A stretch of 64,000 nucleotides of DNA, from positions 1-64,000 of the forward strand of contig CAZDTP010000006.1 in the NCBI GenBank assembly GCA_964508365.1. Reading direction: 5' to 3'. Position numbers and translations under genes: made by a program. How positions within the stretch are numbered: position 1 is the first letter of the stretch; every line of letters begins with the position of its first letter. The DNA comes from an uncultured archaeon (GTDB lineage: Archaea > Asgardarchaeota > Lokiarchaeia > Sigyniarchaeales > SOKP01). The notes below the pieces were generated by a model. The model was not told where the DNA came from and did not search any database. It worked only from the letters and a program-made list of their open reading frames with translations. This document shows, piece by piece, positions 5,222-64,000 of the stretch.

Positions 5222-5382
5222 GCTTTATTTTTAAGATAATGATTATTAATCATTAATTATCGTTATTTAAAATAATTAAGTAATTAATAATTGAATAATT
5301 ATGAAGTACATGGATGCAAAATTAAACTCATTTCTAATAATTAATATAAAGAAATCATAATACTAGGTAAAGTAGATGAGTT

Positions 5383-6837: not shown

Positions 6838-6840
6838 TAA

Positions 6841-9299: not shown

Positions 9300-9374
9300 A
9301 AAACATCAAATTTTAATTATTGTTAGGGATTTTCTTCATTTACTCTTGATTTAATAATTATTTGTTGGTAAAAA

Positions 9375-10538: not shown

Positions 10539-10556
10539 TTTTTATTATTAGTTTTT

Positions 10557-11699
10557 TTATGTTTTTATATATTCATAATATTTCTTTGCGATATTCAGCC
10601 AATCATACTTTTTTACAACCTTTAACGCGTTTTCTTTAAGCAAAGCTAATTCTTCTTGATTCACTAATAATTTAATAATTTTTTCTGACAAATCTTTTGG
10701 ATTGTTTAATTCGAATGTTATGCCCCCATTTCCAATTAACTCTGCCATAGGGGATTTATTGGCACAAATCACTGGGGTTCCGCTTGCCAATGCTTCTAAT
10801 ATTACTTGTCCAAAGCCTTCTAATTCTGAAGGAGTTACAAAAATATCAGCTGAAGCTAAATATTTCAATAGCTCTTTATCGTCAATAAAACCTAAAAATG
10901 TTACATTATTATGGATTTCTAATTTTTTAGATAACTCCTTACAATAATTTAACAGAGCACCTCTACCCGTCAATATTAAGTGAACGTCGGGAATTTGTTT
11001 AACTACATAAGTCATAGCTTTTAACAGAACTGGAATTCTTTTCCTAAAAATTATTAATCCCGCATAAAATATTATTTTATTTCCATATTTATCTCGAATT
11101 GCCTTTGAACGATTAGAAGGGTTAAATTTCTTGCTATTTATTCCATTAGGTATTACTTTAATGTCCTTTTCATCAATCCTATAGTGTTTCATAAGTGCTA
11201 TTTTAGAAGAATCAGACACAGTAATAACACGCTTAAGTTTATTGAATTGCTTATTTTCAAGGTAATGATAAACAGGAAAATAAAGGTAACCATAAATCGT
11301 ATTAATAGGGACATAATGATGAAAGATAGAAAAAGTACGAAGATTTTTGATTTTAAAGAAGCTAGTAAGTGGAATTGGTATATTTAAGATAATAGCATCG
11401 GAATCTTTATATAGCATATAATTACTTTTTCTAAAAAGGTTCAAACCAAAGGTAATATAATGTAAAAAACCAATAACAGCTATTTCTCCAATTAACGCTT
11501 TGAGTTCTCGAATTCTAAAAATCTCAATGCCTTTATATTGGTCGTATTTATTACCGCCATTCCAGAAAGTAGTAATAATCCTAACATCATTTCCCAATTT
11601 TTTTAAATTTACTGCAAGATTTTCAACATATCGTTCAAGACCAAAATAATCTCCGCGTTTTGGATATGGGAAAATAGGAGATATGATTGTAATTTTCAT
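10557..11699 (-). CDS. GT4 glycosyltransferase (paralog 3)
   Basis: DIFVTPSELEGFGQVILEALASGTPVI; MKITIISPIFPYPKRG start. Confidence 0.92.
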   Translation of the reverse strand: MKITIISPIFPYPKRGDYFGLERYVENLAVNLKKLGNDVRIITTFWNGGNKYDQYKGIEIFRIRELKALIGEIAVIGFLHYITFGLNLFRKSNYMLYKDSDAIILNIPIPLTSFFKIKNLRTFSIFHHYVPINTIYGYLYFPVYHYLENKQFNKLKRVITVSDSSKIALMKHYRIDEKDIKVIPNGINSKKFNPSNRSKAIRDKYGNKIIFYAGLIIFRKRIPVLLKAMTYVVKQIPDVHLILTGRGALLNYCKELSKKLEIHNNVTFLGFIDDKELLKYLASADIFVTPSELEGFGQVILEALASGTPVICANKSPMAELIGNGGITFELNNPKDLSEKIIKLLVNQEELALLKENALKVVKKYDWLNIAKKYYEYIKT

Positions 11700-11836
11700 A
11701 ATTTTATACTATATGGTTATAGCACTTGAATCATATGTTCAAACATGAAAATTATTAATTACTCTTAAATTATTTGTTATATAATAAATTGTATTTCATT
11801 TTAATCATCTGATAATTACATTTTTAAAAGTAGATT

Positions 11837-12571
11837 TTGCCAGTAAACTTGAATAGTTTGAAAAGAATAACTCTTACGATTGTAGGTAAATTTATCCCCG
11901 TAGGAATACCCATTCCTATACTGAGAGGACCTCTTCAAGGTTTTAAATTGATTACTGGGGCAGCTTCTGGAAAAGCTAAAGGAGTGTCTTATATCTTAAA
12001 TTTTAGTGAAACCCGTAGATTAAATCTCACAAAACAGTTAATACCTGTTAACGGAATATGTTTTGATGTCGGGGCAAATATTGGGGTTTACACGCTTCTC
12101 TTTTCGAAGTTTTCCAAGTTTGTCTATTCATTTGAACCGTCTCCTCGTAATCTTAGCTTTTTATATAAAATGCTTGAAATAAACAAGATTAAAAACGCTC
12201 AAGTGGTTAGATCCGCAGTTTCAGATTTCGTGGGATTTTGTTCTTTTAAAGAAAGTAATTCTTGTGCAACAGGTAAATTGGATGATGAAGGTGACCTAAA
12301 AGTACGGGTAACATCACTCGATAAGTTCATTGAAAAATCAAAAATTCTTCCGGATGTCATAAAGATTGATGTTGAGGGCGCTGAATTGTCTGTTCTTAAA
12401 GGTGCAAAAAATTGTATTTCAAAAAACCACCCATTAATCGTTTTAGAAACCCACGGTGACGAAATAAAAAAAAAGTGTTTTGAATTTTTAAAAAATATGA
12501 ATTATAAAGAGATCATACCATTAGATTCAGAATCGATAAAGAAAGCTAATGATTTTATTATTATTTCGTAA
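11837..12571 (+). CDS. FkbM-family methyltransferase
   Basis: FDVGANIG, YSFEP and IKIDVEGAE motifs; TTG start, exact start uncertain. Confidence 0.88.
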   Translation: MPVNLNSLKRITLTIVGKFIPVGIPIPILRGPLQGFKLITGAASGKAKGVSYILNFSETRRLNLTKQLIPVNGICFDVGANIGVYTLLFSKFSKFVYSFEPSPRNLSFLYKMLEINKIKNAQVVRSAVSDFVGFCSFKESNSCATGKLDDEGDLKVRVTSLDKFIEKSKILPDVIKIDVEGAELSVLKGAKNCISKNHPLIVLETHGDEIKKKCFEFLKNMNYKEIIPLDSESIKKANDFIIIS

Positions 12572-12589
12572 ATTTTTAAAATCTTAGTA

Positions 12590-13774
12590 TTAATTACTAA
12601 AAACAACTTTTTCTAAAATTTTTTCTAAATCTGATACGGTGTGTTCTATGTTAAAATTGTCTTTCACGATTTGATTACCACATTGAGAAAATTTTCTATA
12701 AAGTTCTTTATTTTTTAAAATTCTAATTGCTTTGATAGAGAAGTCATTAATATCGTAGTTTTTAATTAAATATCCACTTTTTCCATTTACAATGGTATCT
12801 GAAGGACCTCCTTCAAACGCAACGACAGGAGTGCCATTTTTCATAGATTCCAATGGGATTAATCCATACGCTTCGTCTATAGGAGTGTATAATGTTAAAG
12901 AGGCTTTCTGGTAAAAGAAATCTAAAAGGTCATCTTCTATAAATCCAGAAAATACAATGTTTTCTGAGGGAAGGTCCAATTTTTTAATCAATTTTTTAAT
13001 TAAAATACTATTTTCTGTCAATAACCAACCCCCGATCAGTAATTTGGCTTCGGGTATTTCTTTTAATATTTTTTCAAAAATATATATTAGTTCTTTTGCT
13101 CCTTTTAGGTGGTGGGTAAGCCCCAAAGTAAAAATAATTGGTATATTATTTGCTATATTCCATTTTTGCTGAAATCTTAAATATTCTGAATCGGTAAAAC
13201 CGTTACCAGTCTTTATTCCAATATGGTGAACAATACCATCGCGACCATAACATTTTACACCTCGCGCTCTAGTAAAATTACTGTTATAGATAACTTCATC
13301 TGCTCCGAGAGTTCCTTCGATATCGAATTTTTTATAAAAAAGCCTTAAACCCCAACTGGCAATTCTTAAGAAAAATGGAGCATTAGAGTAAAATTTTTTA
13401 TCGTGAAAAAAGCGAAAAGGCTCGTTACAGAAAAAAATGTGTTTCGAACCGTTCCTATTATTAACTTTCGTACAGATATAATTAGATGGAAAATTTACAG
13501 AGATATTTATATCGCTTTTTAATTGGTTTAAAATTCTAAGATAACTTTTTACGATATAATCAAATTTTAGCCAAAAAGGCGGGTGTGAGGGTAAAGGTCC
13601 GCCAACTTCGAACAATTTAATCTTATTATTAAATTTATAGAGTTTTTTATCAACCTTTTGTGAAACGACGGTTATATTATGACCTTTCTCGCATAATTTG
13701 TTTGCATAATCAGTTAAAAATATGCCCCCACCACCGTAAACGGAGAGATAGGATGCAACAAAAGTAATATTCAT
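12590..13774 (-). CDS. GT4 glycosyltransferase
   Basis: YTPIDEAYGLIPLESMKNGTPVV (EX7E); YGGG near the N-terminus. Confidence 0.9.
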   Translation of the reverse strand: MNITFVASYLSVYGGGGIFLTDYANKLCEKGHNITVVSQKVDKKLYKFNNKIKLFEVGGPLPSHPPFWLKFDYIVKSYLRILNQLKSDINISVNFPSNYICTKVNNRNGSKHIFFCNEPFRFFHDKKFYSNAPFFLRIASWGLRLFYKKFDIEGTLGADEVIYNSNFTRARGVKCYGRDGIVHHIGIKTGNGFTDSEYLRFQQKWNIANNIPIIFTLGLTHHLKGAKELIYIFEKILKEIPEAKLLIGGWLLTENSILIKKLIKKLDLPSENIVFSGFIEDDLLDFFYQKASLTLYTPIDEAYGLIPLESMKNGTPVVAFEGGPSDTIVNGKSGYLIKNYDINDFSIKAIRILKNKELYRKFSQCGNQIVKDNFNIEHTVSDLEKILEKVVFSN

Positions 13775-14110
13775 CTAAACACTATTTTTTTTTATTTTTT
13801 ATTAAAGAGTTAGTTTTACTAATATAAAAGGGTTTAAAAATAATTAGAACTAAGAGAGAAGAAGATTGGAATCAATCCAAATTTGTCAAAAATAACTTTT
13901 AATTTTGCAGTTAATTTATACCAAATATAGTTTGATAGCTGCTTTAGCTCGACTTCCAAGTTAATTTGGTTAGATGTTATTAAATTTTAATCATAATAAA
14001 ATTATTAAAAGATATATAGTCAATTTATGGTTTAGTTTAGTAATGGATTCTACTAAATTTTTTTGTGATATTAATAATCCCTCTCTCTCGAATTTGCAAA
14101 TATAGTTCAT

Positions 14111-14323
14111 TTGCACGCTTTGCAAGAAGGTCATAATTTTGCGAAATTTTCAGTAATTGAAAATACGCTTTCCATTTTTTTTATGGTGTTATTTATATCT
14201 CCAAATATTTTCAATTTTGGCGTCTTTGGGGGAGCACTTTCATATATTGTAGCAAAAAAAATAATTCAATTAATCTATCGTCCTAAAATTTATAGGAAAT
14301 TTAAACTTTCAAATTTTAATTGA
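14111..14323 (+). pseudogene. Possible flippase gene remnant
   Basis: ENTLSIFFMVLFISPNIFNFGVFGGALSYIVAK resembles the C-terminal 'L.P..FGxxGAA' helical hairpin of Wzx flippases. It sits in a ~640-bp gap with a TTG start. Confidence 0.3.
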
Positions 14324-14417
14324 ATAATTGAATATATATGTAGGTCTATGATCGACATAAAATATTTTTTTTTATCAGAATAGAAAAATTTTATCAGAAA
14401 TAGTTAATTTATGAAAA

Positions 14418-15773
14418 ATGATAATGCAAAAATTAATTTTCTTAGCTTTAGACGGATTGAGCTGGAATTTAATTGAAGAGTTAATTGCTAAGAAGCGATT
14501 AACAAATATCGAAAAAATAATCAATTCTGGAAGTTCAAGTGTATTGAAAGCAGAAGGTTTTTTGAGTTCTCCTAAAATTTTTTGCTCAATTTTTACCGGA
14601 AAAAAAGTAGAAAAACATGGAATAAGAGATTTTTATTCCAAAGAAGAAGATTTAAAATCCGATCAAATTTGGGATTTATTAAACGAAAAAGGCTTCAGAA
14701 TCGGCGTTTTTAGACCATTGAGTGTTTGGTCTGCTAAAAAATTTGATGGTTTTTGCATACCTAATCCCTTACTTTTAGAGAAAAGTACTTATCCTCAAAG
14801 TCTAAATTTTATTGGTGAATTAGATAAAAAAGCACGATCAGAGAAGTATTCTATATTTTTTATGATTAAAATTTTTTGGAAACTTGTGACATTTGGTTTC
14901 CCACTAATGCAGCTTCTTAAAATAATAAAAAGTAGTATTTTGTTAGCTTTTAAAAGAGGTTTGGAAGAGAGAATGCATCTTTTAAAAGAAATAGAATTAA
15001 GAATTCATACAAATTTGTATTATAAATTATTAAAAAAATATTCCTTGGATTTTTCCGTCTTTTTCGATTATTCATTTGATACCCTTGGTCATATATATTG
15101 GAGAAAAAAAGGCGAAAAATCAAAATATTCTGAAATTCTTCCTAACGCTTATAAAATTATCGATACATTCATAGGAAAGGTAAATAACTACGCTAAAAGG
15201 CATGATTATCATCTAATAATTTGCTCTGATCATGGCTTTGAAAAAATAGAAAAAAAATATCGTGAAAATTTTCGAACCATTAAAGTTTTAACTCTCTTAA
15301 GAGAACTAGGGTTTTATTACGATATTTACGGTATTTTCATGATCGGAAGCGTTGTTTTTCGACTAAGACCAGATTCAACAAATTCGTTAAAAGATTTTGA
15401 AAACACACTTAGGGCGATTAAATGTGAAGAGACAGAACTCTTTAACATTAAATCGTACGAAAAGAAGTTAATTGTTAAAATAAACGATTTTTATGAGGAT
15501 ACAGCAGGTTTAAAAGTGGAATTACCAAATAAGAAAACCTTGAATTTGGATTCGATTATTGATTTTAATCCAGGACATACAGGAGCTCATTCTGCGGATA
15601 ATGGTGTTTTTATATTTAAAGGTCCCCTTGTTAAAGAGGGAATTAAAATTAAGGATATTACTCCGTACGATATTACTCCAACGATTCTTGCGCTTTACGA
15701 CCAGCCAATCCCTCCCGACATTGACGGAAGAGTTCTAAAAGAAGTGTTTAAAGAAAAACCAGATGTTATTTGA
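14418..15773 (+). CDS. Alkaline phosphatase superfamily protein (nucleotide pyrophosphatase/phosphodiesterase-like)
   Basis: LALDGLSW, SSPKIFCSIFTG...HGI, DTLGH, ICSDHGF, HTGAH and DITPTIL motifs. Confidence 0.88.
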   Translation: MIMQKLIFLALDGLSWNLIEELIAKKRLTNIEKIINSGSSSVLKAEGFLSSPKIFCSIFTGKKVEKHGIRDFYSKEEDLKSDQIWDLLNEKGFRIGVFRPLSVWSAKKFDGFCIPNPLLLEKSTYPQSLNFIGELDKKARSEKYSIFFMIKIFWKLVTFGFPLMQLLKIIKSSILLAFKRGLEERMHLLKEIELRIHTNLYYKLLKKYSLDFSVFFDYSFDTLGHIYWRKKGEKSKYSEILPNAYKIIDTFIGKVNNYAKRHDYHLIICSDHGFEKIEKKYRENFRTIKVLTLLRELGFYYDIYGIFMIGSVVFRLRPDSTNSLKDFENTLRAIKCEETELFNIKSYEKKLIVKINDFYEDTAGLKVELPNKKTLNLDSIIDFNPGHTGAHSADNGVFIFKGPLVKEGIKIKDITPYDITPTILALYDQPIPPDIDGRVLKEVFKEKPDVI

Positions 15774-17031
15774 AAATCTTATAAATGGGTCTACTTCTTC
15801 CGTCGGATTGTTTATTAATTAGTTTAAATTTATTTAAACACGAATTTTTAATTATAAACCTAACAAACTGCTCGTTATCGTAGTTCACGAAGGCGTTGCG
15901 CATAATTTTCTCGCTAGGGTCGTGTGGTTGAAAATACATCGTCCTTAGTTTCAAACGGCCTAAAAATTCAATTAAATTCTGATAGAGTTCTTTCTCTCTC
16001 AAAAAATGATGAAAAATGTTAAGAGCTAATACTATATCATAATCTAATTTTTCATTCAAATCAAAAATAGATTTATTTATTATTTTAAACTTCTTACCTT
16101 CAATATCTCTTAGTTTTTTCATGTAATACACATTGCTCGGCCGAATTTCAACAGCATAGCAATCAAATCCTAAATCTTCGAATTTATGGCAAAAGTAAGC
16201 AAGATTTGCTCCAATATCCAATAAAGATCCCTTTTCAATTGTTAGATTCTGACTAATTATTACGAATCTTTGATCTGTATAGGAAGATTTAAACCTTAAA
16301 TCAGGGTGGATTAGTGGTTGGTAAAGTTCTCCATGAATAGATTGAAATTTTAAAAAATCGCTACTAAATTTAAGCCACAAGGGGTGTCTGATCATAACCT
16401 TAACAGTGACATCTTTTACGTTTAACAGCTTTAGAAGGGAAACGATAAACAAGCCATCAAACACAACAAAATTTCCCTCCGTTCCAATACCTACTTTAAT
16501 CTTTTCTATAGATTTATTTGATTTGAAGTTTTGATATATATTTTCCAAAGATTCTAAGAAACTTAGAAATTCTCTTTGGTCTGAACAACCTGCAACCGGT
16601 TGATTGGAAGTAATTTTATCGATAAATTCATTATAAGTAGCGATATCTTCCCATTTTATTTTTTTAATTAGACGAGATTCGAGTAGATTATATTCTCTGG
16701 TTTCAACAATGGGGATTAAATTACCAGAAGAATCCCAGTCATTTGTAAGATTTGGCAAATGCATCAATATGTTATCTCTTCTTTTTATCGAATAATTGAT
16801 TCTGTTAAGCTCTACTTTATAACTATTAATCTGATACTTGGAAGGATCAAAATGTTTATTTTCAATAAGTAGCTCAATAAACCAAAACTTATCGTACGCT
16901 TTATATATTAGCTTCTTAAAATAGGGAACAATTTCGAAAATCCTCCATGCGTAAAATGTATAAATAGTGTTTTTCAATATTGGAATTCTATTAAAAAAAT
17001 ACCAAATCATTCGAATTATTTTTTTTTTCAT
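15766..17031 (-). CDS. SAM-dependent methyltransferase with an N-terminal extension
   Basis: LLDIGANLAYF, YAVE and DIVLALNIFHH in the C-terminal half. Confidence 0.75.
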   Translation of the reverse strand: MKKKIIRMIWYFFNRIPILKNTIYTFYAWRIFEIVPYFKKLIYKAYDKFWFIELLIENKHFDPSKYQINSYKVELNRINYSIKRRDNILMHLPNLTNDWDSSGNLIPIVETREYNLLESRLIKKIKWEDIATYNEFIDKITSNQPVAGCSDQREFLSFLESLENIYQNFKSNKSIEKIKVGIGTEGNFVVFDGLFIVSLLKLLNVKDVTVKVMIRHPLWLKFSSDFLKFQSIHGELYQPLIHPDLRFKSSYTDQRFVIISQNLTIEKGSLLDIGANLAYFCHKFEDLGFDCYAVEIRPSNVYYMKKLRDIEGKKFKIINKSIFDLNEKLDYDIVLALNIFHHFLREKELYQNLIEFLGRLKLRTMYFQPHDPSEKIMRNAFVNYDNEQFVRFIIKNSCLNKFKLINKQSDGRSRPIYKIFK

Positions 17032-18236
17032 GAGTTAGGTCTTATTTTATTATTATTTAATACGCTCATATAGAGCTTATAGTGTGAATCTGCTGCTTTC
17101 TGCCAAGTATAATACTTTTCAACTCGCTCAAGACTCTTTTTACCCATTTGAGTTAGCAATTTTCTATCATTGAACAGTTCAATAATCTTTTCACTTACTT
17201 TTATTATGTCCATAAAGTCAGAAGTGTAACCCGTTTCTCCATTTACAATTATTTCACTTGGGCCCATAATATTAGAACCAATAACAGCTTTTCCACAAGC
17301 CATAGCCTCGCATATTACAAGCCCAAATATTTCTTGTCGCGAGGGATATACGATTAAGTCAGCCATGTTATAATATTCTGGGAGGTTAAATTTAGAGACA
17401 TAACCTACAAGGGTAACATATTTTGATAAATTGTATTGTTGAATTAGGTTTTTAACTATTGGGAGATATCCCGCATCTCCTCCAATAATAACTAGTTTTA
17501 CACTTTTTTTTTTTTTAATCACTAAATTTAGAATTTTTATTAACTTATCCACACCTTTACCTTTAGCAATTCGTCCAACATATAGTATGATGTCGGAATT
17601 TTCTAGTCCTAATTTTTTTTTTAAAATACCCCCATCAACAGGTTTAAAAATATCTGTATTGACTCCATGGGGAATAAAATGTATGTGATCCTCGTCAGCA
17701 CCGTATTTCTTTATAATAGGAATCTCCATTTTAGTAACCGCAATGTAATGTGGTTTCAAATATTTTTTAAGATATCCAGTTGCTATATCAGAAATCATTT
17801 TTGGGATTTTGTCTCTATAATCCCAATTTATACTGATTCCTCCGTGTGGAGAAATTATCAATGGTTTTTTCTTGATAAGCGAGACAATTAATCCGATATT
17901 TTCCTGAAAGCTTCTTAAAGAATGGGAATGGATAATATCAATATTTTTTTCATTCTTTAACAGAAAGGGTAGTAGCTTAAACGAAGTTCTATATTCCTTA
18001 AATTTTAAGAAAGAATCAAAACGATAAATTTTGAAATTTTTACTTCTTTCTTCGTAAAATTCGGTTCTTGCCCGTCCAAATTTCCGAATAGCTGATGTAG
18101 TATATATATTAGTCGAAATTCCTTTTGTCTCTAGAATTGGAGCAAGTTCCATTATGACATTGTATGGTCCGCCTAACTTTCCCGTGAAAAACGGAGTGAA
18201 CATTGCAATATTAATCATAGGATCTTGGTTCTCCAA
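17028..18236 (-). CDS. GT4 glycosyltransferase
   Basis: YVGRIAKGKG, PSRQEIFGLVICEAMACGK. Confidence 0.92.
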   Translation of the reverse strand: MENQDPMINIAMFTPFFTGKLGGPYNVIMELAPILETKGISTNIYTTSAIRKFGRARTEFYEERSKNFKIYRFDSFLKFKEYRTSFKLLPFLLKNEKNIDIIHSHSLRSFQENIGLIVSLIKKKPLIISPHGGISINWDYRDKIPKMISDIATGYLKKYLKPHYIAVTKMEIPIIKKYGADEDHIHFIPHGVNTDIFKPVDGGILKKKLGLENSDIILYVGRIAKGKGVDKLIKILNLVIKKKKSVKLVIIGGDAGYLPIVKNLIQQYNLSKYVTLVGYVSKFNLPEYYNMADLIVYPSRQEIFGLVICEAMACGKAVIGSNIMGPSEIIVNGETGYTSDFMDIIKVSEKIIELFNDRKLLTQMGKKSLERVEKYYTWQKAADSHYKLYMSVLNNNKIRPNS

Positions 18237-55212: not shown

Positions 55213-56349
55213 ATGATTCATAATTCATTCGATACTAAAAATTTATTATGTTATTTTCATTTATTTAACCTGATGACCAAAAAATCTGATTATAAATCAG
55301 AACAGGAAAGAATACTCCAGATTAAATACAATTTAATTAAATTTAACCTATTTGAAGGAACGATTGCAGATCATATAGAACACATTATCAAAATAATAAT
55401 TAATATTGGAAAAATTCGGGGGAGGAGCACTCGATTATCAATTATCTTAGTAATTTTTTTCCTTCTTAGAAAATTAACTCAAAAGGAACTACAAAAATTA
55501 ACAGGATATTCACGATCTAGTATTTCAACATCCATGAATTATATGTGTAAATCTGGTGTAGTCAATAAAGTACCAATTAAAGGAACTCATACATTTGAAT
55601 ATCGATTAAAGGGCAACGAATTTGAAATGCTCTTAGGAAATTATCTGGCAATTTTAGATTCTGTTATAACAGTAAAAAATGCATTAGAAATTAAAAAAAT
55701 CATCAAGGCAAATAGAAATCAAAATAACAAATTAATAAATAATTTTATAGAAACTCTCGATAAATACCAGATATTGCTTGAAAACATATGTAACAATACA
55801 ATATCAATGATAAGAAAACCTATAAATCTCATAAAAAATAAAGAAGATAATTGGATTATAAACAAACATACAGATAATCCAAATGAAATTATTGCCGCCT
55901 TTTTTAATCTAACATTGTTTTATGACCAAAAAAAGAGCCTCTCGGAGATATTATGTCACTTTATAGAGCATAAAAAATTAACCCAAAAGGAATTATGTAG
56001 TCTAACTAGCTATTCAGCGGGAACAATTTCTCAGGGCTTAAAATTTTTGGTCAATAATAGTTTAATCAAGGAGATAAATACAAGGAGAGGTGCACAAAAA
56101 GAATACTTTGTTATATCAATTTCAGATTACTTCATCCAAAGAAATATTATTATTACAAAAGCCATACTTGGACAGAAATTAATTTATGAAAAAATAAAGG
56201 AGGAATTGGATACAAACATTGGTGAATTAAGCTATTTGAAAGGATATAATGAATTATATATATATTTATTACAGAATCTAACAGTTATGCCAATATTTGA
56301 AAAAGCATTAGAAGATTATATTAAAATAAAAAATGAAATGAATAAATAA
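55213..56349 (+). CDS. Transcriptional regulator with two tandem MarR/GbsR-like winged HTH domains
   Basis: LTQKELQKLTGYSRSSIS and LTQKELCSLTSYSAGTIS; real start may be the ATG at 55273. Confidence 0.8.
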   Translation: MIHNSFDTKNLLCYFHLFNLMTKKSDYKSEQERILQIKYNLIKFNLFEGTIADHIEHIIKIIINIGKIRGRSTRLSIILVIFFLLRKLTQKELQKLTGYSRSSISTSMNYMCKSGVVNKVPIKGTHTFEYRLKGNEFEMLLGNYLAILDSVITVKNALEIKKIIKANRNQNNKLINNFIETLDKYQILLENICNNTISMIRKPINLIKNKEDNWIINKHTDNPNEIIAAFFNLTLFYDQKKSLSEILCHFIEHKKLTQKELCSLTSYSAGTISQGLKFLVNNSLIKEINTRRGAQKEYFVISISDYFIQRNIIITKAILGQKLIYEKIKEELDTNIGELSYLKGYNELYIYLLQNLTVMPIFEKALEDYIKIKNEMNK

Positions 56350-56552: not shown

Positions 56553-57524
56553 TTGATTATATCAACTTTTCCTCCATCACTGAATTTTGTACCTACTCAA
56601 AGTTTGTTAGAAATTCAAGAATCTAGAATACCGTTTGAATATATTAGTTCTAAGAGAATTTTTTTTTACAAAAACATCAAAGTTCTTGTGTTTAAGCGCC
56701 AAATGAAACAAATATCGTTAATAAGCACTCCCGCAGAGTCATATTTTCATAGAGCAATCAAGCTATTTCTATATAAATATATTTATGAAAATAATAAAAC
56801 AATCGTAAAAAGATCACTTGAAAAATACTTTGGCAACCGTTATGCTGATGTATATTTTAAACTTGATACAGGCAAAGAAATCGTTGTTGAAGTTCAAAAT
56901 TCTAAAATTTCTGTTAAAGAAATAATAGCGAGAACTAAGGACTATAATATAAAGGATATTTTCGTCCTATGGATGTTATACGGGGATGGAAAATGCGCTG
57001 CTTCTCCTAAGGGGGCTAAAGATGTAAAATCTATTAAAATAAGTCCAGCAGAAAATTATTTACATCGAATGTATGGAGGTCGTGTTTATTACGTAAACTT
57101 AGATATAAGAAGAAATAAAGCGTCGTTAAAAACTCCTTTCGCAATCCATTATTCTAAACCAATAAAGAAGAACCAACGAGGTTTGTTTAAAAATCGTTAC
57201 GACAGTTTTTACATTCGTAATTCAAATTTTATAACAATTCCTAATTGGAAAATTGTGTGTACAGAATTCTCGGGATTTAAGATAGCTCGCTTTTACGATA
57301 AAAATATTAAATCCATCTTAAAGAATAAGATTTTGAGTTTTTATGAGATTGAGAAAAAACGAATCCCTAATGATAAGAAATTCATTCGAGAGATATTGAA
57401 AAAATTTAATAAGAAATATGGGATTTACATGATATATAATTCAATTCTTGAATTATCTTCTGAAAATAAGATTGAATTTTCTCGAAAAATTATTACAAAG
57501 ATTAAGAGTAAAATTAATTTTTAA
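56553..57524 (+). CDS. CoiA-like PD-(D/E)xK nuclease domain protein
   Basis: ESYFHRAIK, RYADVY and VEVQNS motifs; real start probably the ATG at 56703. Confidence 0.75.
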   Translation: MIISTFPPSLNFVPTQSLLEIQESRIPFEYISSKRIFFYKNIKVLVFKRQMKQISLISTPAESYFHRAIKLFLYKYIYENNKTIVKRSLEKYFGNRYADVYFKLDTGKEIVVEVQNSKISVKEIIARTKDYNIKDIFVLWMLYGDGKCAASPKGAKDVKSIKISPAENYLHRMYGGRVYYVNLDIRRNKASLKTPFAIHYSKPIKKNQRGLFKNRYDSFYIRNSNFITIPNWKIVCTEFSGFKIARFYDKNIKSILKNKILSFYEIEKKRIPNDKKFIREILKKFNKKYGIYMIYNSILELSSENKIEFSRKIITKIKSKINF

Positions 57525-58027: not shown

Positions 58028-58486
58028 TTGAGGTTGGAAATGGTTAAAACAATAAAATTAAGAAATGGTTCAGAGATAGAATTTGACGAAAAGGCACCCC
58101 AAACTCTTTTTGAAATAATAATTAGCGAGATTTTAATACCTAAATATAAAGAGAATAAGGATTGGAACTTAACCATAAATATTATACTTGAAGAGATAAA
58201 TCAAATCATATCCAAATACGAGTTAGAACCGACGTTAAAAATAGGGCTTTTAAACCAGGTAGAAAAGCACTTGGATAAAGACATTGAGGAATTAACCGGT
58301 TGCGATAAAATTGAGATATTATTTTTGAATATGGATGATATTGTTGAAGATCTTAAGAAACTAATTGTCGCTGGTAAAGATAAACAAGATTTACGTAATG
58401 ACATGGCACATCTAATCTTCCCACTCACAGTTTTTGAACTTGGAGAGCTATTTATTTATTTAGGAAAGAGAGCGTTTCTCAAGTAG
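58028..58486 (+). CDS. Hypothetical helical protein
   Basis: 152-aa ORF with typical codon usage; likely start at MVKTIK. Confidence 0.7.
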   Translation: MRLEMVKTIKLRNGSEIEFDEKAPQTLFEIIISEILIPKYKENKDWNLTINIILEEINQIISKYELEPTLKIGLLNQVEKHLDKDIEELTGCDKIEILFLNMDDIVEDLKKLIVAGKDKQDLRNDMAHLIFPLTVFELGELFIYLGKRAFLK

Positions 58487-58546: not shown

Positions 58547-59524
58547 CTACTTTTTTACTAGAGTTGTTATTGGTCGCGATTGCAAAGTGTATAATGTGTT
58601 GTTTTCTATTGCCCATTCAATATCTTGAGGATAGTTAAAAAGCGCTTCCAACTTCAAACCTAAATTATGAATTTGCAAAAGTTGAGATGAATTTAAAGAG
58701 CACATTTCTCTAAATTTTCTTTCAGTGTCAATAAGTATAGTAGAATCGCCTTTTGGATTAGCAACAGAAGTTTTTTCTTTTTTTCCAATTATCATTTTTA
58801 TTATATCAAAATTGTCTTTCTTAACTACTATCAAATCGGGAATAATTGTATTGTTCGTGATTGTTTCACCAAGACCCCAAGTAGAATTAATCATCATTTG
58901 GTCAATATTGTTGTTGATTACATTTGCTGTAAATAATACTCCTGAAACTTGAGGTTTTAACATTCTTTGAACGATGATAGCCATTTCTAAATTCAAAGGA
59001 GTAATATTGAATCCTCTTTTGTTTAATTGTATAAGATATAAGAGAATTTGAGGTGAAAAAAGAGAAGCCCAACACATTTTAATCGATAAAATAATTTCTG
59101 TGATACTTTTGATGTTAAGAAACGATTGAGCTTGCCCAGCGAACGAAAAATTATTTGAGTCCTCATAATTAGCAGAAGATCTAACTGCATAAGAGTAATG
59201 CTCATCAATATCTGAAAATTCTTTGATGTGCTTTTGTTGTATCTCTGAAATTATGTTTGATGGCATTTTAGAAGTTAAGAATAAATCCTTAATCTTTGTT
59301 GAAATTTCAATTACTTCTTTTGGGTTGTACTCTTTCGCAAAAATTTCTTCAATGATAGGCTTAATGCGAGATTCTTTGATGAACGATGTAAAAGCTTTAG
59401 TACTTATAGCATACCCCAGAGGGACATTTATTTCATTTTTAATTAAGGTAAAAATGTTGGAAGCTTTCCCTCCAAAAAGACGTGTATCTTCTTTACCTTC
59501 TTTTAAACTTGTTATATATTCCAT
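58547..59524 (-). CDS. Stand-alone ATP-grasp nucleotide-binding module of PEP synthase/dikinase type (PPDK_N)
   Basis: GGKA, AVRSSANYED...SFAGQ, IVQRM, SGVLFT, WGLGE, PQDIEWA, LQSRPITT, then stop. Confidence 0.92.
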   Translation of the reverse strand: MEYITSLKEGKEDTRLFGGKASNIFTLIKNEINVPLGYAISTKAFTSFIKESRIKPIIEEIFAKEYNPKEVIEISTKIKDLFLTSKMPSNIISEIQQKHIKEFSDIDEHYSYAVRSSANYEDSNNFSFAGQAQSFLNIKSITEIILSIKMCWASLFSPQILLYLIQLNKRGFNITPLNLEMAIIVQRMLKPQVSGVLFTANVINNNIDQMMINSTWGLGETITNNTIIPDLIVVKKDNFDIIKMIIGKKEKTSVANPKGDSTILIDTERKFREMCSLNSSQLLQIHNLGLKLEALFNYPQDIEWAIENNTLYTLQSRPITTLVKK

Positions 59525-59563
59525 AATATGATTGTGAAAACTATCTTACTACTAACCATGAAT

Positions 59564-59935
59564 TTAATCATAAACATAAAGAAACCCTTTATCTTCTCCA
59601 TCGTGTGTAATTTTTACTTTTTTATCGATCAGTAATGGTATCTCGTTAGGAGAAATTTTAATTCCCATGATGCAAGGGATTCCAAACTCTCTCGAGATAA
59701 TAGCTAAGTGGGAACCAGCCCCACCTGTAGAACAAATAGTACCGGTTAGATCTGATAAAATGGGCCCTAATGTTGTTATCCCGGCATCGTGTACTAAACA
59801 TATTTTACCTTTTGCTTTATCAAACAAATCGATCACGTGTTCAATCTTAGTAACATAGACTAAAGTTCCTGAAACCTCTAATTTAGATGAACATGACAAG
59901 CCTTCACCTACTTTCCTCATGATTATAATCCCCAC
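59564..59935 (-). CDS. Stand-alone phospho-histidine swivel (PEP-utiliser mobile) domain
   Basis: TGGAGSHLAIISREFGIPCIMG (His codon at 59708-59710); likely start at MRKVGEG. Confidence 0.92.
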   Translation of the reverse strand: MGIIIMRKVGEGLSCSSKLEVSGTLVYVTKIEHVIDLFDKAKGKICLVHDAGITTLGPILSDLTGTICSTGGAGSHLAIISREFGIPCIMGIKISPNEIPLLIDKKVKITHDGEDKGFLYVYD

Positions 59936-60082
59936 GGAGTAAAATCTTTCTCAATGTTTAATATATCAAAATCTTAAGTATTGTAATTAAATGTATTTAA
60001 AAAACTTAAAACTATTTCATAGATTTAAATAGAATTAAGTTTAAAATTAAATATAAAAGGAAAGATTTTAAGGGATTAACTT

Positions 60083-61240
60083 ATGGACATTAAAGAAGCA
60101 AATGAATTAATAGCTCATGCTTCCGAGCTAGTTGATTACCAAGTATCAAAAAGAGGTCTTTTAGAGACACAACTTTTCCCAGTAACTGCTTATATTTGCG
60201 TATCGTTTTATAATGCTTACGATATGTTATATGAAATTTTGAAAAAAATTTCGGAAAAAACAACTCCTGAAATTATGGGAAGGGAAAGTCGAAAAATCTT
60301 GTCAGAAATTCATGCTCTAAGTATATTTTATATTCCGTTATACTACATGATTGGGAGAATGGGAGAAATTCAAAGGAAGGGTGGTGATCCTAGAAGTGAA
60401 AGCCCAGAAAAAAGAAAACAAACATTATTTGTATTAGATTTTTGGAAAAAGTTGGCCACCTCTTATTTCAAGGATGAAAAACTATCTGTTTATGACTCTA
60501 ACAAAAAAAACATGGTTTTAGATCATTCTACCGTTAAAAAAACTTTAAAAAATGTCATAGATCTTTCTAAAGATGAAGTTATTAAACTAAAAAGAACCGT
60601 AGCAAATCTTGAGGTTGTTTCTTTTCTTGACGAATGTGAAGCAAGAGCAAAGATATGTGATCATGGACCCTACAAAATTAACGATAACGAAAGTTTAGTT
60701 TTTAGAGAGATTTCACATCTTTACGATGGTGGTAGCCCACACTTCCCTTGGTCAGAAACAAATGCCAAAGCTCCTTTTAATAATATTGCTTTTGCTTTTC
60801 GATTGAAGGATGTACAAAATAATTTCGATGATTTCGCTACTCTTGAAACTATTCCTCAAGATTTTACGGATAACATCACAGGTGTTGCCCTCTTAACTCG
60901 TAGCGAACAAAAAATTAAAACTCTTGATTGGAACATCTTAGATTCATTTAAAGACTATTCGGAAAGAGCGAATAAAGAGTTATTTTTGAAGTTTTCGAAA
61001 TGGGATAGAAAACAAAGGTTAATTGCTGGTGCGTACGCTTACTGTTATGGATATGCTAGATACACCAATTTTGTTGGAATCACGAATGATATAAATTGGG
61101 ATCTTACGGAGAAAACGATGAATACTTACGTACCAATGTTTATGGAGAGCGATTTTGACCCAGGTATCCCGAGGCTTTTTCGGAGTAAATCTAAAAAGAG
61201 AAAAGAAGGCCCATCGTTATACTTACTCCCCGAGGAATGA
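60083..61240 (+). CDS. Hypothetical, largely helical protein; candidate substrate-binding subunit of the split dikinase
   Basis: 385-aa ORF divergent from the His-domain gene across a 147-bp gap; no recognised family motif. Confidence 0.7.
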   Translation: MDIKEANELIAHASELVDYQVSKRGLLETQLFPVTAYICVSFYNAYDMLYEILKKISEKTTPEIMGRESRKILSEIHALSIFYIPLYYMIGRMGEIQRKGGDPRSESPEKRKQTLFVLDFWKKLATSYFKDEKLSVYDSNKKNMVLDHSTVKKTLKNVIDLSKDEVIKLKRTVANLEVVSFLDECEARAKICDHGPYKINDNESLVFREISHLYDGGSPHFPWSETNAKAPFNNIAFAFRLKDVQNNFDDFATLETIPQDFTDNITGVALLTRSEQKIKTLDWNILDSFKDYSERANKELFLKFSKWDRKQRLIAGAYAYCYGYARYTNFVGITNDINWDLTEKTMNTYVPMFMESDFDPGIPRLFRSKSKKRKEGPSLYLLPEE

Positions 61241-62166
61241 AAGTTATGGATAAAAGTTGCTTACCTCTTGGTTTAGATAGTCGCGATGAACTACTACATC
61301 AACCTACTGACGAATTAAAATGGCGCGAATCTTACTATTTTAATTGGGCAGATTTGGAAAATAGAATTTCAGGTTTTTCAACAATAGGGATTGTTCCTAA
61401 CGAAAATAGACGAGAGATTGTATTTTTATTATTTTTAGAGGATCGAAATGAAGTATATTATAAGGAACTTCCATTACATGAATACGAGACAGATGCAAAT
61501 GTGATGTTAAAATATAAAAATCTCTCATACAAACTTATTGAACCATTTAAAAAGTGGGAGATAAGTTATAAATCAAGAAAAATAGAGTTTGATATTACCT
61601 TTGAAACTAGATTTCCAACTTTCAATTTTGGTAAAGATTCATCTAAATCTTGGCACCAGCATTTTGAATCGTCAGGAGTAATTTCGGGTAAATTGATTAA
61701 GAAAGACGGAGAAGTCATCAACATTAACGGGTATGGTCAACGCGACAAAAGTTGGGGCTTTCGAGACTGGCACCAGTTTGATAAATGGTACGCTGGTCAT
61801 TTTCAATTTAAATTTTGGTCATGTGCATTTCGAAAAGATTTTAGTAGTGATCAAATTGATTTATCGGGTCATACATCGACTGAAAAAGGAAATATTCCTA
61901 TATCTAATCTAGAGATTAAAACTCAAATAGATTCTGACCTGTTTAATAGTCCACTTATTACATACTATGAATTTACGGATGCAAATGATAAAACATATAA
62001 AATTAAAGCTGAGCGATTTGCTAGAAATTCTTTTATTCGGTTTGTTAGAAGTTTTGACGGGGGAAATACAGAATTATTTGAACAAATGGCAATTTTAAAA
62101 GATTTGAAAAGCGGAGAAACTGGAGTTGGTATGATGGAACATTTAAGGACCCATAAGTTAGAATAA
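61237..62166 (+). CDS. All-beta protein, probable tocopherol-cyclase/AttH/CrtC-like double beta-barrel
   Basis: WRESYYFNW, QHFESSG.I.G and GYGQRDKSWGFRDW motifs; Trp/Tyr-rich; 4-bp overlap with the upstream gene. Confidence 0.6.
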   Translation: MKVMDKSCLPLGLDSRDELLHQPTDELKWRESYYFNWADLENRISGFSTIGIVPNENRREIVFLLFLEDRNEVYYKELPLHEYETDANVMLKYKNLSYKLIEPFKKWEISYKSRKIEFDITFETRFPTFNFGKDSSKSWHQHFESSGVISGKLIKKDGEVININGYGQRDKSWGFRDWHQFDKWYAGHFQFKFWSCAFRKDFSSDQIDLSGHTSTEKGNIPISNLEIKTQIDSDLFNSPLITYYEFTDANDKTYKIKAERFARNSFIRFVRSFDGGNTELFEQMAILKDLKSGETGVGMMEHLRTHKLE

Positions 62167-62296: not shown

Positions 62297-63166
62297 ATGT
62301 GTCAGTGGTGTATGTCTCACGGTGCGGGTAAAAAATGGTATATGAACGCTAAAAATTACTCCGATGAGCTTGCTGAAGAAAGTAATATGAAAGATTACTT
62401 GACGGAGCAATGGATGAATTTTGAGCAAGTTTATATTAGAAAAATTATGGGGTTTTCTTCTAAAGATTTAGGATATAAGTTGAAAATGCCAGTAATTGGA
62501 AAAATCCTTCGTTGGAGGGCTGAAAACATGATCCACAGCCAAAAAAAAAGGAGAAATCCCGTAAGAGCTGATGGGCATTTCGGTCAAGTTATACCCTTAG
62601 AGGATGCTCAAATTATCATGTCAGAACTTGCGGCTGAACCTATAATATGTAATTATTGTATGTGTCGTTGGATGCAAAGAAAGAAAAAAGAAGCTGTCTG
62701 CATAAACTTTGGTGTTTTGTCAGAGGTCCTCGAAAAATTACCCCGTTTTATACCAAAAGATCGAGTAGTAAGGATTGACCGAGAGACAGCAGTTGAAAAA
62801 TTGGAAGAATTTAATAAAAAAGGTTACATTTCAAGCGTTTGGTTTCAACCAATACCATACATAAATGCAGTCTGTTCGTGTGAGAGCCCTGAGTGTGGAG
62901 CGTTTACATTACGTAACAATTTTGATATCAACGTGATGTATAAAGCGGAATATATTATCCAATTAGATCAAGATAAATGCCAAGGATGTAAATCATGTGT
63001 TGCTATGTGTCAATTAAGTGCGATTCGGTTTATTCCTTCAATGGATAGAGTTATAATCGATTATAATAAATGCTTTGGATGCGGCGTTTGTCGTCACGCT
63101 TGTAAACACGACGCCTTAAAATTAATTCCCCGAGAGGATTATCCGGGATTTGATGGAACGTACTAG
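62297..63166 (+). CDS. Multi-Cys iron-sulfur protein with C-terminal 2x[4Fe-4S] domain
   Basis: MCQWC, CNYCMC and VCSCESPEC, plus CQGCKSCVAMC and CFGCGVCRHAC. Confidence 0.88.
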   Translation: MCQWCMSHGAGKKWYMNAKNYSDELAEESNMKDYLTEQWMNFEQVYIRKIMGFSSKDLGYKLKMPVIGKILRWRAENMIHSQKKRRNPVRADGHFGQVIPLEDAQIIMSELAAEPIICNYCMCRWMQRKKKEAVCINFGVLSEVLEKLPRFIPKDRVVRIDRETAVEKLEEFNKKGYISSVWFQPIPYINAVCSCESPECGAFTLRNNFDINVMYKAEYIIQLDQDKCQGCKSCVAMCQLSAIRFIPSMDRVIIDYNKCFGCGVCRHACKHDALKLIPREDYPGFDGTY

Positions 63167-63174: not shown

Positions 63175-63453
63175 ATGAGTAAAGCAAATAAAAAGAAAAG
63201 AACTAAGATCAGAATAGATTATTCTATTTGTGGAGAAAAAGGAAAAATTGATCCCAGAAACTGCGGTTTGTGTATGAAAGCGTGTGATCCAGCGGTATTT
63301 ATTATGCATGAAACGTTAGGCACCGAGAAGAAGCAAAAAGACATGTACGATCCTCAAGATTGGAGAATCACGCCTATATGGGGCTCACTCTGTAGTCGTT
63401 GTTATAAATGTGTCGAAGTTTGCCCCGAAAATGCAATTACAATTACATGGTAA
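63175..63453 (+). CDS. Small dicluster-type [4Fe-4S] ferredoxin
   Basis: C...CGLCMKAC and CSRCYKCVEVCP. Confidence 0.85.
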   Translation: MSKANKKKRTKIRIDYSICGEKGKIDPRNCGLCMKACDPAVFIMHETLGTEKKQKDMYDPQDWRITPIWGSLCSRCYKCVEVCPENAITITW

Positions 63454-63497: not shown

Positions 63498-64000
63498 ATG
63501 AAAAGAAAGTTTAATCCTAAAGATATAAAGATCGGTTTGAAATTACCAACTATTCTAACCCCTTTAAGTTCTATATTTATCCGTATGGCATTTCTTGTAG
63601 ATTATGTTTATTCTCCCCTTTTCAAAATTTTTGAACTAATTGGGCGATCGAAAAGACTCAAAAATATCAATTTTCTACCAGAAACTAGTTCGATTAGACT
63701 CAAGGAAGTCTTGATAGAGCTCGAAGATGGGGGAAAATTAGCGACAGATATTTACTTACCTAAAGAACTTTACAAAAAAAAGGGAACGGGGCCGACTATT
63801 CTAGTAAGACTACCTTATTGGAAAGATCGTCTTAGTATTTTAGGATACTTTATAGCTTCTAAAGGATATGTCGTTGTGATTCAAGATATTCGGGGTTGTG
63901 GTCGATCAAGGGAGTATGGTACTAATTCACTATATATGTACGAACGACAAGATGGAATCGAAACTTTACGTTGGATTACTCGTCGATTTTGGTATAACAA
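63498..64000 (+). CDS. CocE/NonD-family (peptidase S15-like) hydrolase, 5' part (runs off the window end)
   Basis: Not in the ORF track. Manual translation MKRKFNPK...DGGKLATDIYLP...PTILVRLPY...GYVVVIQDIRGCGRS...ERQDGIETLRWI. Confidence 0.85.
   Translation, partial: MKRKFNPKDIKIGLKLPTILTPLSSIFIRMAFLVDYVYSPLFKIFELIGRSKRLKNINFLPETSSIRLKEVLIELEDGGKLATDIYLPKELYKKKGTGPTILVRLPYWKDRLSILGYFIASKGYVVVIQDIRGCGRSREYGTNSLYMYERQDGIETLRWITRRFWYN

What the first reader, a model, noticed from the sequence alone, without database searches (positions are those of the whole stretch)
58547..61240. Candidate three-subunit PEP-synthase-like phosphotransferase (free ATP-grasp + free phospho-His + unknown acceptor subunit)
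Seen: the ATP-grasp module (ending right after LQSRPITT) and the His swivel domain (GSHLAIISREFGIP) are separate genes. They are transcribed His-first, which is the reverse of the fused enzymes, so this is not a frameshifted PEP synthase. No PEP/pyruvate TIM barrel is present in the window. Known: rifampin phosphotransferase and phenylphosphate synthase use this ATP -> phospho-His -> hydroxyl chemistry with a large helical acceptor-binding domain. Inference: the divergent 385-aa helical orphan is the missing acceptor-binding subunit, giving a fully modular dikinase-type kinase for an unknown small molecule or lipid.
Basis: partly seen in the sequence, partly recalled or inferred. Interest (0 to 1): 0.82.

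Follow-up and report, generated by a model that had tools for sequence, protein, structure and literature searches.

The report
Split dikinase feeding a phosphate lyase
A Loki-type Asgard archaeon encodes, as separate genes, an ATP-binding domain, a free phospho-histidine carrier, a conserved partner protein with no recognisable fold and a relative of 25-phosphosteroid lyase, which together most likely remove an unreactive hydroxyl group by phosphorylating it and then expelling the phosphate; I found no paper describing such an enzyme.

Summary
A free PPDK_N ATP-grasp gene (325 aa) and a free swivel-His gene (118-123 aa) lie divergent from a 385-aa orphan. The genome has a complete PEP synthase and a complete PPDK elsewhere, and no stray PEP-binding barrel.

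The orphan is a real partner:
- Among 150 Lokiarchaeia genomes, 58 have it. Of these, 56 also have a free swivel, and none of the 92 orphan-negative genomes does.
- Paralogous loci repeat the same gene set.
- Actinobacteria such as Gordonia, Nocardia and Pseudonocardia carry natural swivel-orphan fusions.

It is not an RPH/PpsA-type substrate domain. A very confident model (pLDDT 96.7) matches nothing in the PDB (best Z 4.6), and RPH aligns only to the swivel.

A fourth conserved gene, DUF7065/7064, overlaps the orphan's stop codon by 4 bp. It is a sequence relative of 25-phosphosteroid lyase (E 5.6e-9, shared motifs). A Cys-rich Fe-S protein and a ferredoxin stay linked to the set across Asgard classes.

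Best reading (about 0.55): an AMP-forming, three-part dikinase plus a phosphate lyase, acting as an ATP-dependent dehydratase for an unknown hydrophobic alcohol.

Follow-ups on other Lokiarchaeial genomes in this scan reached the same reading. I saw those reports only after my own result.

The parts
58547..59524 (-). P0001, free ATP-grasp (PPDK_N) subunit, 325 aa. Inferred to bind ATP and phosphorylate the swivel His.
   Evidence: Pfam PPDK_N 243.9 bits. PDB sequence matches to PEP synthase and to the RPH ATP-grasp domain, E 2e-44 over residues 14-322. 27% identity to the genome's own PEP synthase. Free-standing orthologues of 320-345 aa in at least 51 Lokiarchaeia genomes.
59564..59935 (-). 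P0002, free phospho-histidine swivel domain. 123 aa from the GTG start, or more likely 118 aa from the ATG at 59920. Catalytic His76 lies in GGAGSHLAIISRE.
   Evidence: Pfam PEP-utilizers 39.5 bits. Free-standing frames of 118-140 aa in 56 genomes. The His is invariant in 17 archaeal and actinobacterial copies. In a fusion homologue the swivel superposes on RPH residues 761-867 with Z 15.6 and rmsd 1.9 A.
59936..60082 (.). 147-bp AT-rich divergent intergenic region, presumed to hold promoters for both arms.
   Evidence: Sequence read. No promoter analysis was done.
60083..61240 (+). P0003, 385-aa partner with no detectable known fold. Inferred to be the second docking site of the swivel, i.e. 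the acceptor-site (phosphotransfer) subunit. Conserved residues: R24, R92, E186-x-R188, G195-P196-Y197, E209, P222-W223, G316.
   Evidence: No Pfam, NCBIfam or PDB sequence hit. AF2 model pLDDT 96.7, pTM 0.94. Foldseek finds no hit at E<=0.001, and the all-PDB VIA search gives a best Z of 4.6. Family and conserved motif. Co-occurrence, synteny and fusions.
61237..62166 (+). P0004, DUF7065/DUF7064 protein, a relative of 25-phosphosteroid lyase. Inferred to eliminate phosphate from the phosphoester. Its start overlaps the P0003 stop by 4 bp (ATGA).
   Evidence: Pfam DUF7065 60.7 bits, and NCBIfam Rv3169 family below its cut-off. The family profile A4 hits PDB 9fzn/9g2i/9g4c, '25-phosphosteroid lyase', at E 5.6e-9, sharing the YYFN, G-x-RD-x-SWG-x-R and G-x-G-x-x-E motifs. 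Adjacent to the orphan in 28 of 29 orthologous loci.
62297..63166 (+). 289-aa Cys-rich Fe-S protein: an unassigned N-terminal ~210 aa with CxxC-type motifs, followed by a C-terminal 2x[4Fe-4S] ferredoxin domain. A conserved accessory of the module.
   Evidence: Fer4 families match residues 221-280 only. It stays linked to the module in Lokiarchaeia and in other Asgard classes, even when moved to the other side.
63175..63453 (+). 92-aa ferredoxin, always paired with the 289-aa Fe-S protein.
   Evidence: Fer4_9/Fer4 hits. Synteny.
63498..64000 (+). 5' part of a CocE/NonD (S15) hydrolase, about 669 aa, which runs 1510 nt past the window end. Last gene of the co-oriented run. Conserved only in the closest genera.
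   Evidence: Peptidase_S15 and CocE_NonD hits. The rest of the gene was read in L076 and has a PepX_C domain. Synteny.

Best explanation
The locus encodes a multi-component, ATP-dependent dehydratase built from a three-way split dikinase and a phosphate lyase. None of the steps below has been shown biochemically.

1. Inferred from family membership: the free ATP-grasp protein P0001 binds ATP and transfers the beta-phosphate to His76 of the free swivel protein P0002, releasing AMP and Pi, as in PEP synthase, RPH and PpsAB/HpeHI.
2. Inferred from gene context and fusions: the phospho-swivel docks on the 385-aa protein P0003. This new-fold domain carries a conserved Arg/Glu/GPY site and passes the phosphoryl group to a hydroxyl of a bound, probably hydrophobic, substrate.
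3. Inferred from homology: the translationally coupled P0004, a relative of 25-phosphosteroid lyase, eliminates the phosphate to leave an alkene.
4. Speculative: the conserved Fe-S protein and ferredoxin add a redox step on the product or the precursor.

In some genomes a single free ATP-grasp gene is found with 2-5 orphan copies. This suggests a hub-and-spoke relay in which shared phosphodonor parts serve several acceptor/lyase pairs.
For: Domain identities.

Not a broken PEP synthase:
- The genome already has a complete PEP synthase and a complete PPDK, and no free barrel.
- P0001 is only 27% identical to the resident PEP synthase.

Functional linkage of the four genes:
- Among 150 Lokiarchaeia genomes the orphan occurs in 58 and the free swivel in 56, all within those 58. 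No orphan-negative genome has a free swivel. Within the window's own genus both are present in the same 22 of 39 genomes.
- A free ATP-grasp occurs in at least 51 of the 58.
- In orthologous loci the orphan and DUF7065 genes are adjacent in 28 of 29, and the swivel is divergent upstream in 23 of 29.
- Paralogous loci, about 33% identical, repeat ATP-grasp + swivel + orphan + DUF7065. One of them has the order swivel-orphan-swivel-orphan.
- Other Asgard classes keep the set despite rearrangement.

Fusions (Rosetta stone): proteins with an N-terminal swivel and a C-terminal orphan domain exist in Gordonia otitidis (WP_007239118.1) and widely in Mycobacteriales and Pseudonocardiales. These loci hold three swivel-orphan units, a weak DUF7065 homologue and a truncated PPDK. 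The fusion model has pTM 0.92 with a low-confidence linker, as expected for a tethered swivel.

The swivel His is invariant in 17 copies. The orphan family conserves several Arg residues and a Glu.

Lyase homology: the A4 profile matches 25-phosphosteroid lyase at E 5.6e-9 with shared motifs.

Precedents: the kinase-plus-lyase logic and the unusually high group-transfer potential of tertiary phosphoesters are described in PMC8449060 and PMC7411048. Two-component dikinases are described in PMC12167813.
Against: - There is no biochemical, transcript or substrate information.
- I could not read the model coordinates, so I did not test whether the swivel His faces the conserved Arg/GPY site.
- The lyase match covers mainly the N-terminal 165 residues and is a family-level relation. 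The family also borders on tocopherol-cyclase-like proteins, so P0004 could catalyse a cyclisation or a hydration instead.
- The known 25-PSL works with an APH-like kinase, not a dikinase.
- In some genomes the orphan-lyase pair has no swivel or ATP-grasp next to it, so action in trans has to be assumed.
- The role of the Fe-S pair is unexplained.
- The genomes counted are related to one another, so the co-occurrence counts overstate independence.
Confidence: 0.55

Rival explanations
1. This is a plain three-subunit small-molecule kinase. The phosphoester is the end product or is used for a later carboxylation or condensation, as with phenylphosphate or PigC. P0004 is only a lipocalin-like binding or cyclase protein, not a lyase.
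For: Known split dikinases (PpsAB, HpeHI, CreHI) phosphorylate phenols and are followed by carboxylases or oxidases. The ESM atlas places DUF7064/7065 next to tocopherol cyclases.
Against: P0004 shares the conserved motifs of 25-phosphosteroid lyase and is translationally coupled to the orphan. No carboxylase (UbiD or biotin type) or phosphatase is conserved in the loci examined.
Confidence: 0.17
2. P0003 is not the acceptor site. It is a scaffold or specificity adaptor, and the swivel delivers the phosphoryl group directly to a substrate held in the P0004 barrel, which then acts as both acceptor site and lyase.
For: P0003 and P0004 are nearly always adjacent and overlap by 4 bp. No catalytic test of P0003 exists.
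Against: Natural fusions join the swivel to the orphan domain, never to DUF7065, in the proteins examined. The orphan has invariant Arg, Glu and GPY residues typical of a catalytic or anion-binding site. Some orphan copies lack an adjacent DUF7065 gene (L045).
Confidence: 0.13
3. This is a regulatory or protein-directed phosphorelay. P0003 is itself the final phospho-acceptor or a sensor, rather than an enzyme acting on a small molecule.
For: PTS-like His relays exist, and swivel domains also occur as regulatory appendages, for example at the C-terminus of pyruvate kinase.
Against: The neighbours are consistently metabolic: a lyase homologue, Fe-S proteins, a hydrolase, an MFS transporter, double-cubane/HGD-like reductases and an acyl-CoA ligase. 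No DNA-binding or signalling domain is fused to the family.
Confidence: 0.05
4. This is a decayed, split remnant of a PEP synthase or PPDK with no function of its own.
For: The best NCBIfam hits of both modules are PEP synthase models, all far below their cut-offs.
Against: The frames are intact and conserved as separate genes in more than 50 genomes at 43-90% identity. The gene order is reversed. Identity to the resident PEP synthase is only 27%. No barrel fragment is present.
Confidence: 0.01

Closest known systems
25-hydroxysteroid kinase (25-HSK) plus 25-phosphosteroid lyase (25-PSL) of Sterolibacterium denitrificans, an ATP-dependent dehydration of a tertiary alcohol (PMC7411048, PMC8449060; PDB 9FZN, 9G2I, 9G4C)
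   Same: The logic is the same: a kinase followed by a phosphate-eliminating lyase. P0004 is a sequence relative of 25-PSL with shared motifs.
   Different: The kinase here is a three-part phospho-histidine dikinase, expected to form AMP + Pi, not the ~40-kDa phosphotransferase-family kinase that forms ADP. The substrate is unknown. The host is an Asgard archaeon. An Fe-S pair is attached instead of Mo hydroxylases.
Two-component small-molecule dikinases PpsAB (phenylphosphate synthase), CreHI and HpeHI, and single-chain rifampin phosphotransferase RPH (PMC12167813)
   Same: A free ATP-grasp component and a swivel His that shuttles phosphate to a separate acceptor site. The swivel is structurally closest to that of RPH (Z 15.6).
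   Different: In those enzymes the swivel is fused C-terminally to an RPH-type substrate-binding domain. HpeH aligns to RPH over 473 residues. Here the swivel is free, or fused N-terminally in Actinobacteria. Its partner domain shows no similarity to RPH residues before 761 or to any PDB fold.
PEP synthase and pyruvate phosphate dikinase
   Same: PPDK_N ATP-grasp and PEP-utilizers swivel with the catalytic His.
   Different: There is no PEP/pyruvate TIM barrel, the genes are separate and in reversed order, and identity to the genome's own PEP synthase is only 27%.
Bacterial PTS (Enzyme I / HPr / multiple Enzymes II)
   Same: A possible hub-and-spoke use of shared phospho-His donors for several specific acceptors: one ATP-grasp gene against 2-5 orphan copies in some genomes. 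This is inference.
   Different: The donor is ATP through an ATP-grasp, not PEP. The acceptors are soluble enzymes of a new fold, not transporters.

Membership tests
PEP synthase / PPDK (PEP-utilising dikinases) | N-terminal PPDK_N ATP-grasp domain | tested here: met
   PF01326 at 243.9 bits, profile positions 3-312 of 328.
PEP synthase / PPDK (PEP-utilising dikinases) | Swivel domain with the catalytic His | tested here: met
   PF00391 at 39.5 bits. The His in GSHLAIISRE is invariant in 17 homologues.
PEP synthase / PPDK (PEP-utilising dikinases) | C-terminal PEP/pyruvate-binding TIM barrel (PEP-utilizers_C) available to the modules | tested here: not met
   In the genome PF02896 is found only inside the full-length PEP synthase (C73) and PPDK (C58). 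There is none in the window and no free copy.
RPH / two-component dikinases (PpsAB, HpeHI, CreHI) | ATP-grasp component of the PEP-synthase/RPH type, free or N-terminal | tested here: met
   P0001 matches the RPH-Lm ATP-grasp domain at E 2e-44 over residues 14-322.
RPH / two-component dikinases (PpsAB, HpeHI, CreHI) | Swivel fused to the C-terminus of an RPH-type substrate-binding domain | tested here: not met
   P0002 consists of the swivel alone. In the natural fusions the swivel is N-terminal.
RPH / two-component dikinases (PpsAB, HpeHI, CreHI) | Acceptor domain homologous to the rifampin-binding domain of RPH | tested here: inconclusive
   No sequence hit. Foldseek gives no hit at E<=0.001. 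The all-PDB VIA search gives a best Z of 4.6, and RPH is not among the 50 listed rows. In the fusion model RPH aligns only over residues 5-121 against RPH 761-867.
25-HSK / 25-PSL ATP-dependent dehydratase | Lyase component homologous to 25-phosphosteroid lyase | tested here: met
   Profile A4 against 9fzn_A gives E 5.6e-9 over residues 16-180 against 20-182, with shared YYFN, RDxSWGxR and GxGxxE motifs.
25-HSK / 25-PSL ATP-dependent dehydratase | Kinase component of the 25-HSK phosphotransferase type (ADP-forming) | tested here: not met
   The conserved partners are PPDK_N and PEP-utilizers modules. An APH gene was seen next to one actinobacterial locus only and is not conserved.
25-HSK / 25-PSL ATP-dependent dehydratase | Acts on a tertiary steroid C25 alcohol or its phosphoester | not testable with these tools
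   No substrate information can be derived from the sequence.
Pfam DUF7065/DUF7064 (Rv3169 family) | Score above the Pfam gathering threshold | tested here: met
   P0004 scores 60.7 bits for DUF7065 against a cut-off of 27. Paralogues hit both DUF7065 and DUF7064. The NCBIfam Rv3169_fam score of 43.7 is below its cut-off of 150.

The most novel reading that the evidence does not exclude
Asgard archaea and Actinobacteria share an undescribed, PTS-like phospho-histidine relay. One ATP-grasp donor and free swivel carriers serve several acceptor enzymes of a completely new fold. Each acceptor enzyme is paired with a phosphate lyase and, in Asgard, with low-potential Fe-S proteins. Together they carry out AMP-forming, essentially irreversible deoxygenation (dehydration, perhaps followed by reduction) of unactivated, for example tertiary isoprenoid or sterol-like, alcohols without oxygen.
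Probability: 0.3. Interest if true: 0.85.

Novelty: new variant of a known kind. Interest (0 to 1): 0.76.

Why it matters
If this is right, the locus defines a third architecture of swivel-His dikinases, after the barrel type and the RPH type, with an acceptor domain that has no structural relative. It would also link dikinase chemistry to phosphate elimination.

Tertiary phosphoesters have a group-transfer potential about equal to that of ATP (PMC8449060), so the ADP-forming kinase is fully reversible. A dikinase that spends two anhydride bonds would make activation of such alcohols irreversible. That would give a rationale for how anaerobes, including Asgard archaea in sediments, attack inert lipid alcohols.

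The homologous clusters in culturable Gordonia, Nocardia, Rhodococcus and Pseudonocardia make the hypothesis directly testable by genetics and biochemistry. The 25-PSL relatives also gain a second type of kinase partner.

Tried and rejected
I reconstructed synteny with the genome search and the fetch from genomes instead.
I used the single Gordonia fusion protein instead.
- Searches with the orphan that gave nothing:
  - Pfam and NCBIfam.
  - PDB by sequence and by profile.
  - The ESM atlas, with no usable hit.
  - Foldseek against the PDB.
  - The all-PDB VIA search, best Z 4.6 to unrelated small domains. Only the central part of the model was well tested by the listed rows.
- I looked for orphan-lyase fusions in the long family members from Burkholderia ambifaria (726 aa) and a 728-aa metagenomic protein. 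There are none, and their C-terminal halves are unassigned.
- RNA evidence: no RNA holder was listed for the locus.
- Literature: no paper mentions DUF7065. No open paper on the 25-PSL structures was found. Searches for a free swivel system returned only the known two-component dikinases.
- The predicted models' coordinates are not exposed to scripts. The distance from the swivel His to the conserved pocket could therefore not be measured.
- The idea that a stray PEP-utilizers_C gene reconstitutes PEP synthase is rejected.
Full report
**1. The observation**

The window comes from a 4.07-Mb Lokiarchaeial MAG, judged from source names of near-identical proteins and from its placement by the genome search.

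- P0001, 58547-59524(-), 325 aa, is a complete PPDK_N ATP-grasp domain (243.9 bits) ending ...LQSRPITTLVKK.
- P0002, 59564-59935(-), is nothing but a PEP-utilizers swivel domain with the catalytic His in GGAGSHLAIISREFGIP. Homologues are 118-140 aa, so the ATG at 59920 is the likelier start.
- The swivel gene precedes the ATP-grasp gene by 39 nt, the reverse of fused enzymes.
- P0003, 60083-61240(+), 385 aa, is divergent across a 147-bp AT-rich spacer and has no Pfam or NCBIfam match.

The genome holds one full PEP synthase and one full PPDK on other contigs, and PEP-utilizers_C occurs only inside them. P0001 is 27% identical to the resident PEP synthase N-domain. A frameshifted or reconstitutable PEP synthase is therefore excluded.

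**2. Is the orphan a partner?**

Four independent lines of evidence say yes.

- **Phyletic pattern.** In 150 Lokiarchaeia genomes the orphan is found in 58 and a free swivel in 56. All 56 are among the 58, and none of the 92 orphan-negative genomes has a free swivel. Within the window's own genus both are present in the same 22 of 39 genomes. The two exceptions are G128, which is 78% complete, and G053, which has only a distant paralogue. A free ATP-grasp (frame of 300-352 aa) is seen in at least 51 of the 58, and in at most three orphan-negative genomes, two of them as fragments. The genomes are related to one another, so I give these as counts, not statistics.
- **Orthologous synteny.** In 29 loci with 1.5-kb flanks, the orphan is followed by the P0004 homologue in 28. 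The divergent swivel is present in 23 and the ATP-grasp in 19.
- **Paralogous loci.** Copies only about 33% identical repeat the same four families. One locus (L042) reads ATP-grasp | swivel-orphan-swivel-orphan | DUF7065. Other Asgard classes keep the set too. Overall, 80 of 300 sampled genomes of the phylum carry the family.
- **Fusions.** The family has 176 clusters at 50% identity. It includes proteins with an N-terminal swivel and a C-terminal orphan domain, for example Gordonia otitidis WP_007239118.1. These are widespread in Mycobacteriales and Pseudonocardiales, where they are annotated only as 'PEP-utilizing enzyme'.

The actinobacterial loci contain three swivel-orphan units, a weak DUF7065 homologue, an acyl-CoA-ligase-type gene and a barrel-less PPDK of the PRK05878 type within 8 kb.

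**3. What the orphan is not**

An alignment-based AlphaFold model of P0003 is very confident (pLDDT 96.7, pTM 0.94). It shows helical bundles around a central antiparallel sheet.

- Foldseek against the PDB gives no hit at E<=0.001.
- A Foldseek-independent scan of 48,161 PDB representatives gives a best Z of 4.6, to unrelated small domains.
- A model of the Gordonia fusion (pLDDT 92.5, pTM 0.92, with a low-confidence linker at 128-150) matches RPH, PPDK, Enzyme I and the pyruvate kinase C-domain only through its swivel. RPH residues 761-867 align to model residues 5-121 with Z 15.6 and rmsd 1.9 A.

By contrast, the substrate-binding component HpeH of a known two-component dikinase aligns to RPH over 473 residues (PMC12167813). 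The orphan is therefore not detectably an RPH/PpsA-type domain.

The family conserves R24, R92, E186-x-R188, G195-P196-Y197, E209, P222-W223 and G316. Such a pattern fits an anion-binding or catalytic pocket.

**4. The fourth gene**

P0004 (61237-62166) overlaps the orphan's stop codon by 4 bp and belongs to DUF7065/DUF7064. A profile of orthologues and paralogues (A4) hits the PDB entries named '25-phosphosteroid lyase' (9FZN, 9G2I, 9G4C) at E 5.6e-9. The family's invariant motifs line up: ESYYFN with DRYYFN, GxRDxSWGxR with GSRDRSWGVR, and GxGxxE with GYGMME.

25-PSL is the enzyme that expels phosphate from 25-phospho-steroids after 25-HSK has phosphorylated the tertiary alcohol. Together the two enzymes form an ATP-dependent dehydratase (PMC7411048, PMC8449060, PMC11061730). 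PMC8449060 reports that this phosphoester has a transfer potential about equal to that of ATP, which makes the ADP-forming kinase fully reversible. A dikinase that releases AMP + Pi would pull such a phosphorylation forward. This is my inference.

**5. Further conserved parts**

A 289-aa Cys-rich protein with a C-terminal 2x[4Fe-4S] domain and a 92-aa ferredoxin follow P0004. They stay with the module in Lokiarchaeia and in three other Asgard families, even when relocated to the opposite flank.

A CocE/NonD hydrolase ends the run in the closest genera. One paralogous locus is flanked by an MFS transporter and two HGD-D/double-cubane-type reductase genes. Some redox step on a hydrophobic metabolite is therefore likely, but its nature is open.

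**6. Shared donors**

Several genomes (G007, G026, G095, G096, G098, G010) show one free ATP-grasp gene but 2-5 orphan copies. Some orphan-lyase pairs have no swivel or ATP-grasp next to them. This suggests that the donor parts act in trans on several acceptor/lyase pairs, as in a PTS-like hub. Divergent copies may have been missed at the thresholds used.

**7. Verdict**

The best reading is a tripartite, AMP-forming dikinase with a new-fold acceptor subunit, coupled to a phosphate lyase, acting as an ATP-dependent dehydratase on an unknown hydrophobic alcohol (confidence about 0.55). Association of the four genes is much more certain than their chemistry.

I found no paper describing the orphan family or a free-swivel dikinase. 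After obtaining the lyase hit, I looked up earlier notes of this scan. Follow-up agents on several other Lokiarchaeial genomes had reached the same kinase-plus-lyase reading. This is therefore a recurrent finding of the scan on other DNA, not independent confirmation.

Noticed in passing
window 58028-58486 (+): A 152-aa ORF with no Pfam hit lies convergent with the ATP-grasp gene. It is conserved at 75-89% identity in the same position in related genomes, even where the ATP-grasp gene is missing from the locus (L053-L055).
   Followed up: partly
window 55213-56349 (+) and 56553-57524 (+): A 378-aa protein with two winged-helix (MarR/ArsR-like) DNA-binding units, followed by a CoiA-nuclease-like protein. 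The CoiA-like gene is syntenic in the closest genomes.
   Followed up: no
L042 (G026:C240) 4593-5993 and 12338-14901: The paralogous module (one ATP-grasp, two swivel-orphan pairs, DUF7065/7064) is flanked by an MFS_2 transporter and by two HGD-D / double-cubane-cluster reductase-like genes. This hints at a low-potential redox step.
   Followed up: partly
L073 (Pseudonocardia aurantiaca) 6220-17636; also L061-L075: A conserved actinobacterial cluster holds three swivel-orphan units (one fused), a DUF7065-like gene, two unassigned genes of about 200 aa, an AMP-binding ligase and a barrel-less PPDK of the PRK05878 type that carries its own swivel. That makes four swivel domains in one cluster.
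   Followed up: partly
P0173 (Burkholderia ambifaria, 726 aa) and P0155 (728 aa): The orphan domain occupies residues ~21-369 and is followed by about 350 residues with no detectable family. This C-terminal part is neither a second orphan copy nor a DUF7065 domain.
   Followed up: partly
L076 (contig beyond the window) 1568-2371 (-) and 2891-3742 (+): A TrmB-family regulator and a radical SAM protein lie directly after the CocE/NonD hydrolase gene that ends the operon.
   Followed up: no
many Lokiarchaeia genomes (table): Besides PEP synthase and PPDK, most genomes carry one to three PPDK_N proteins of about 900-945 aa, 31-42% identical to P0001. The window's genome showed none at the threshold used. 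Their C-terminal parts were not examined.
   Followed up: no
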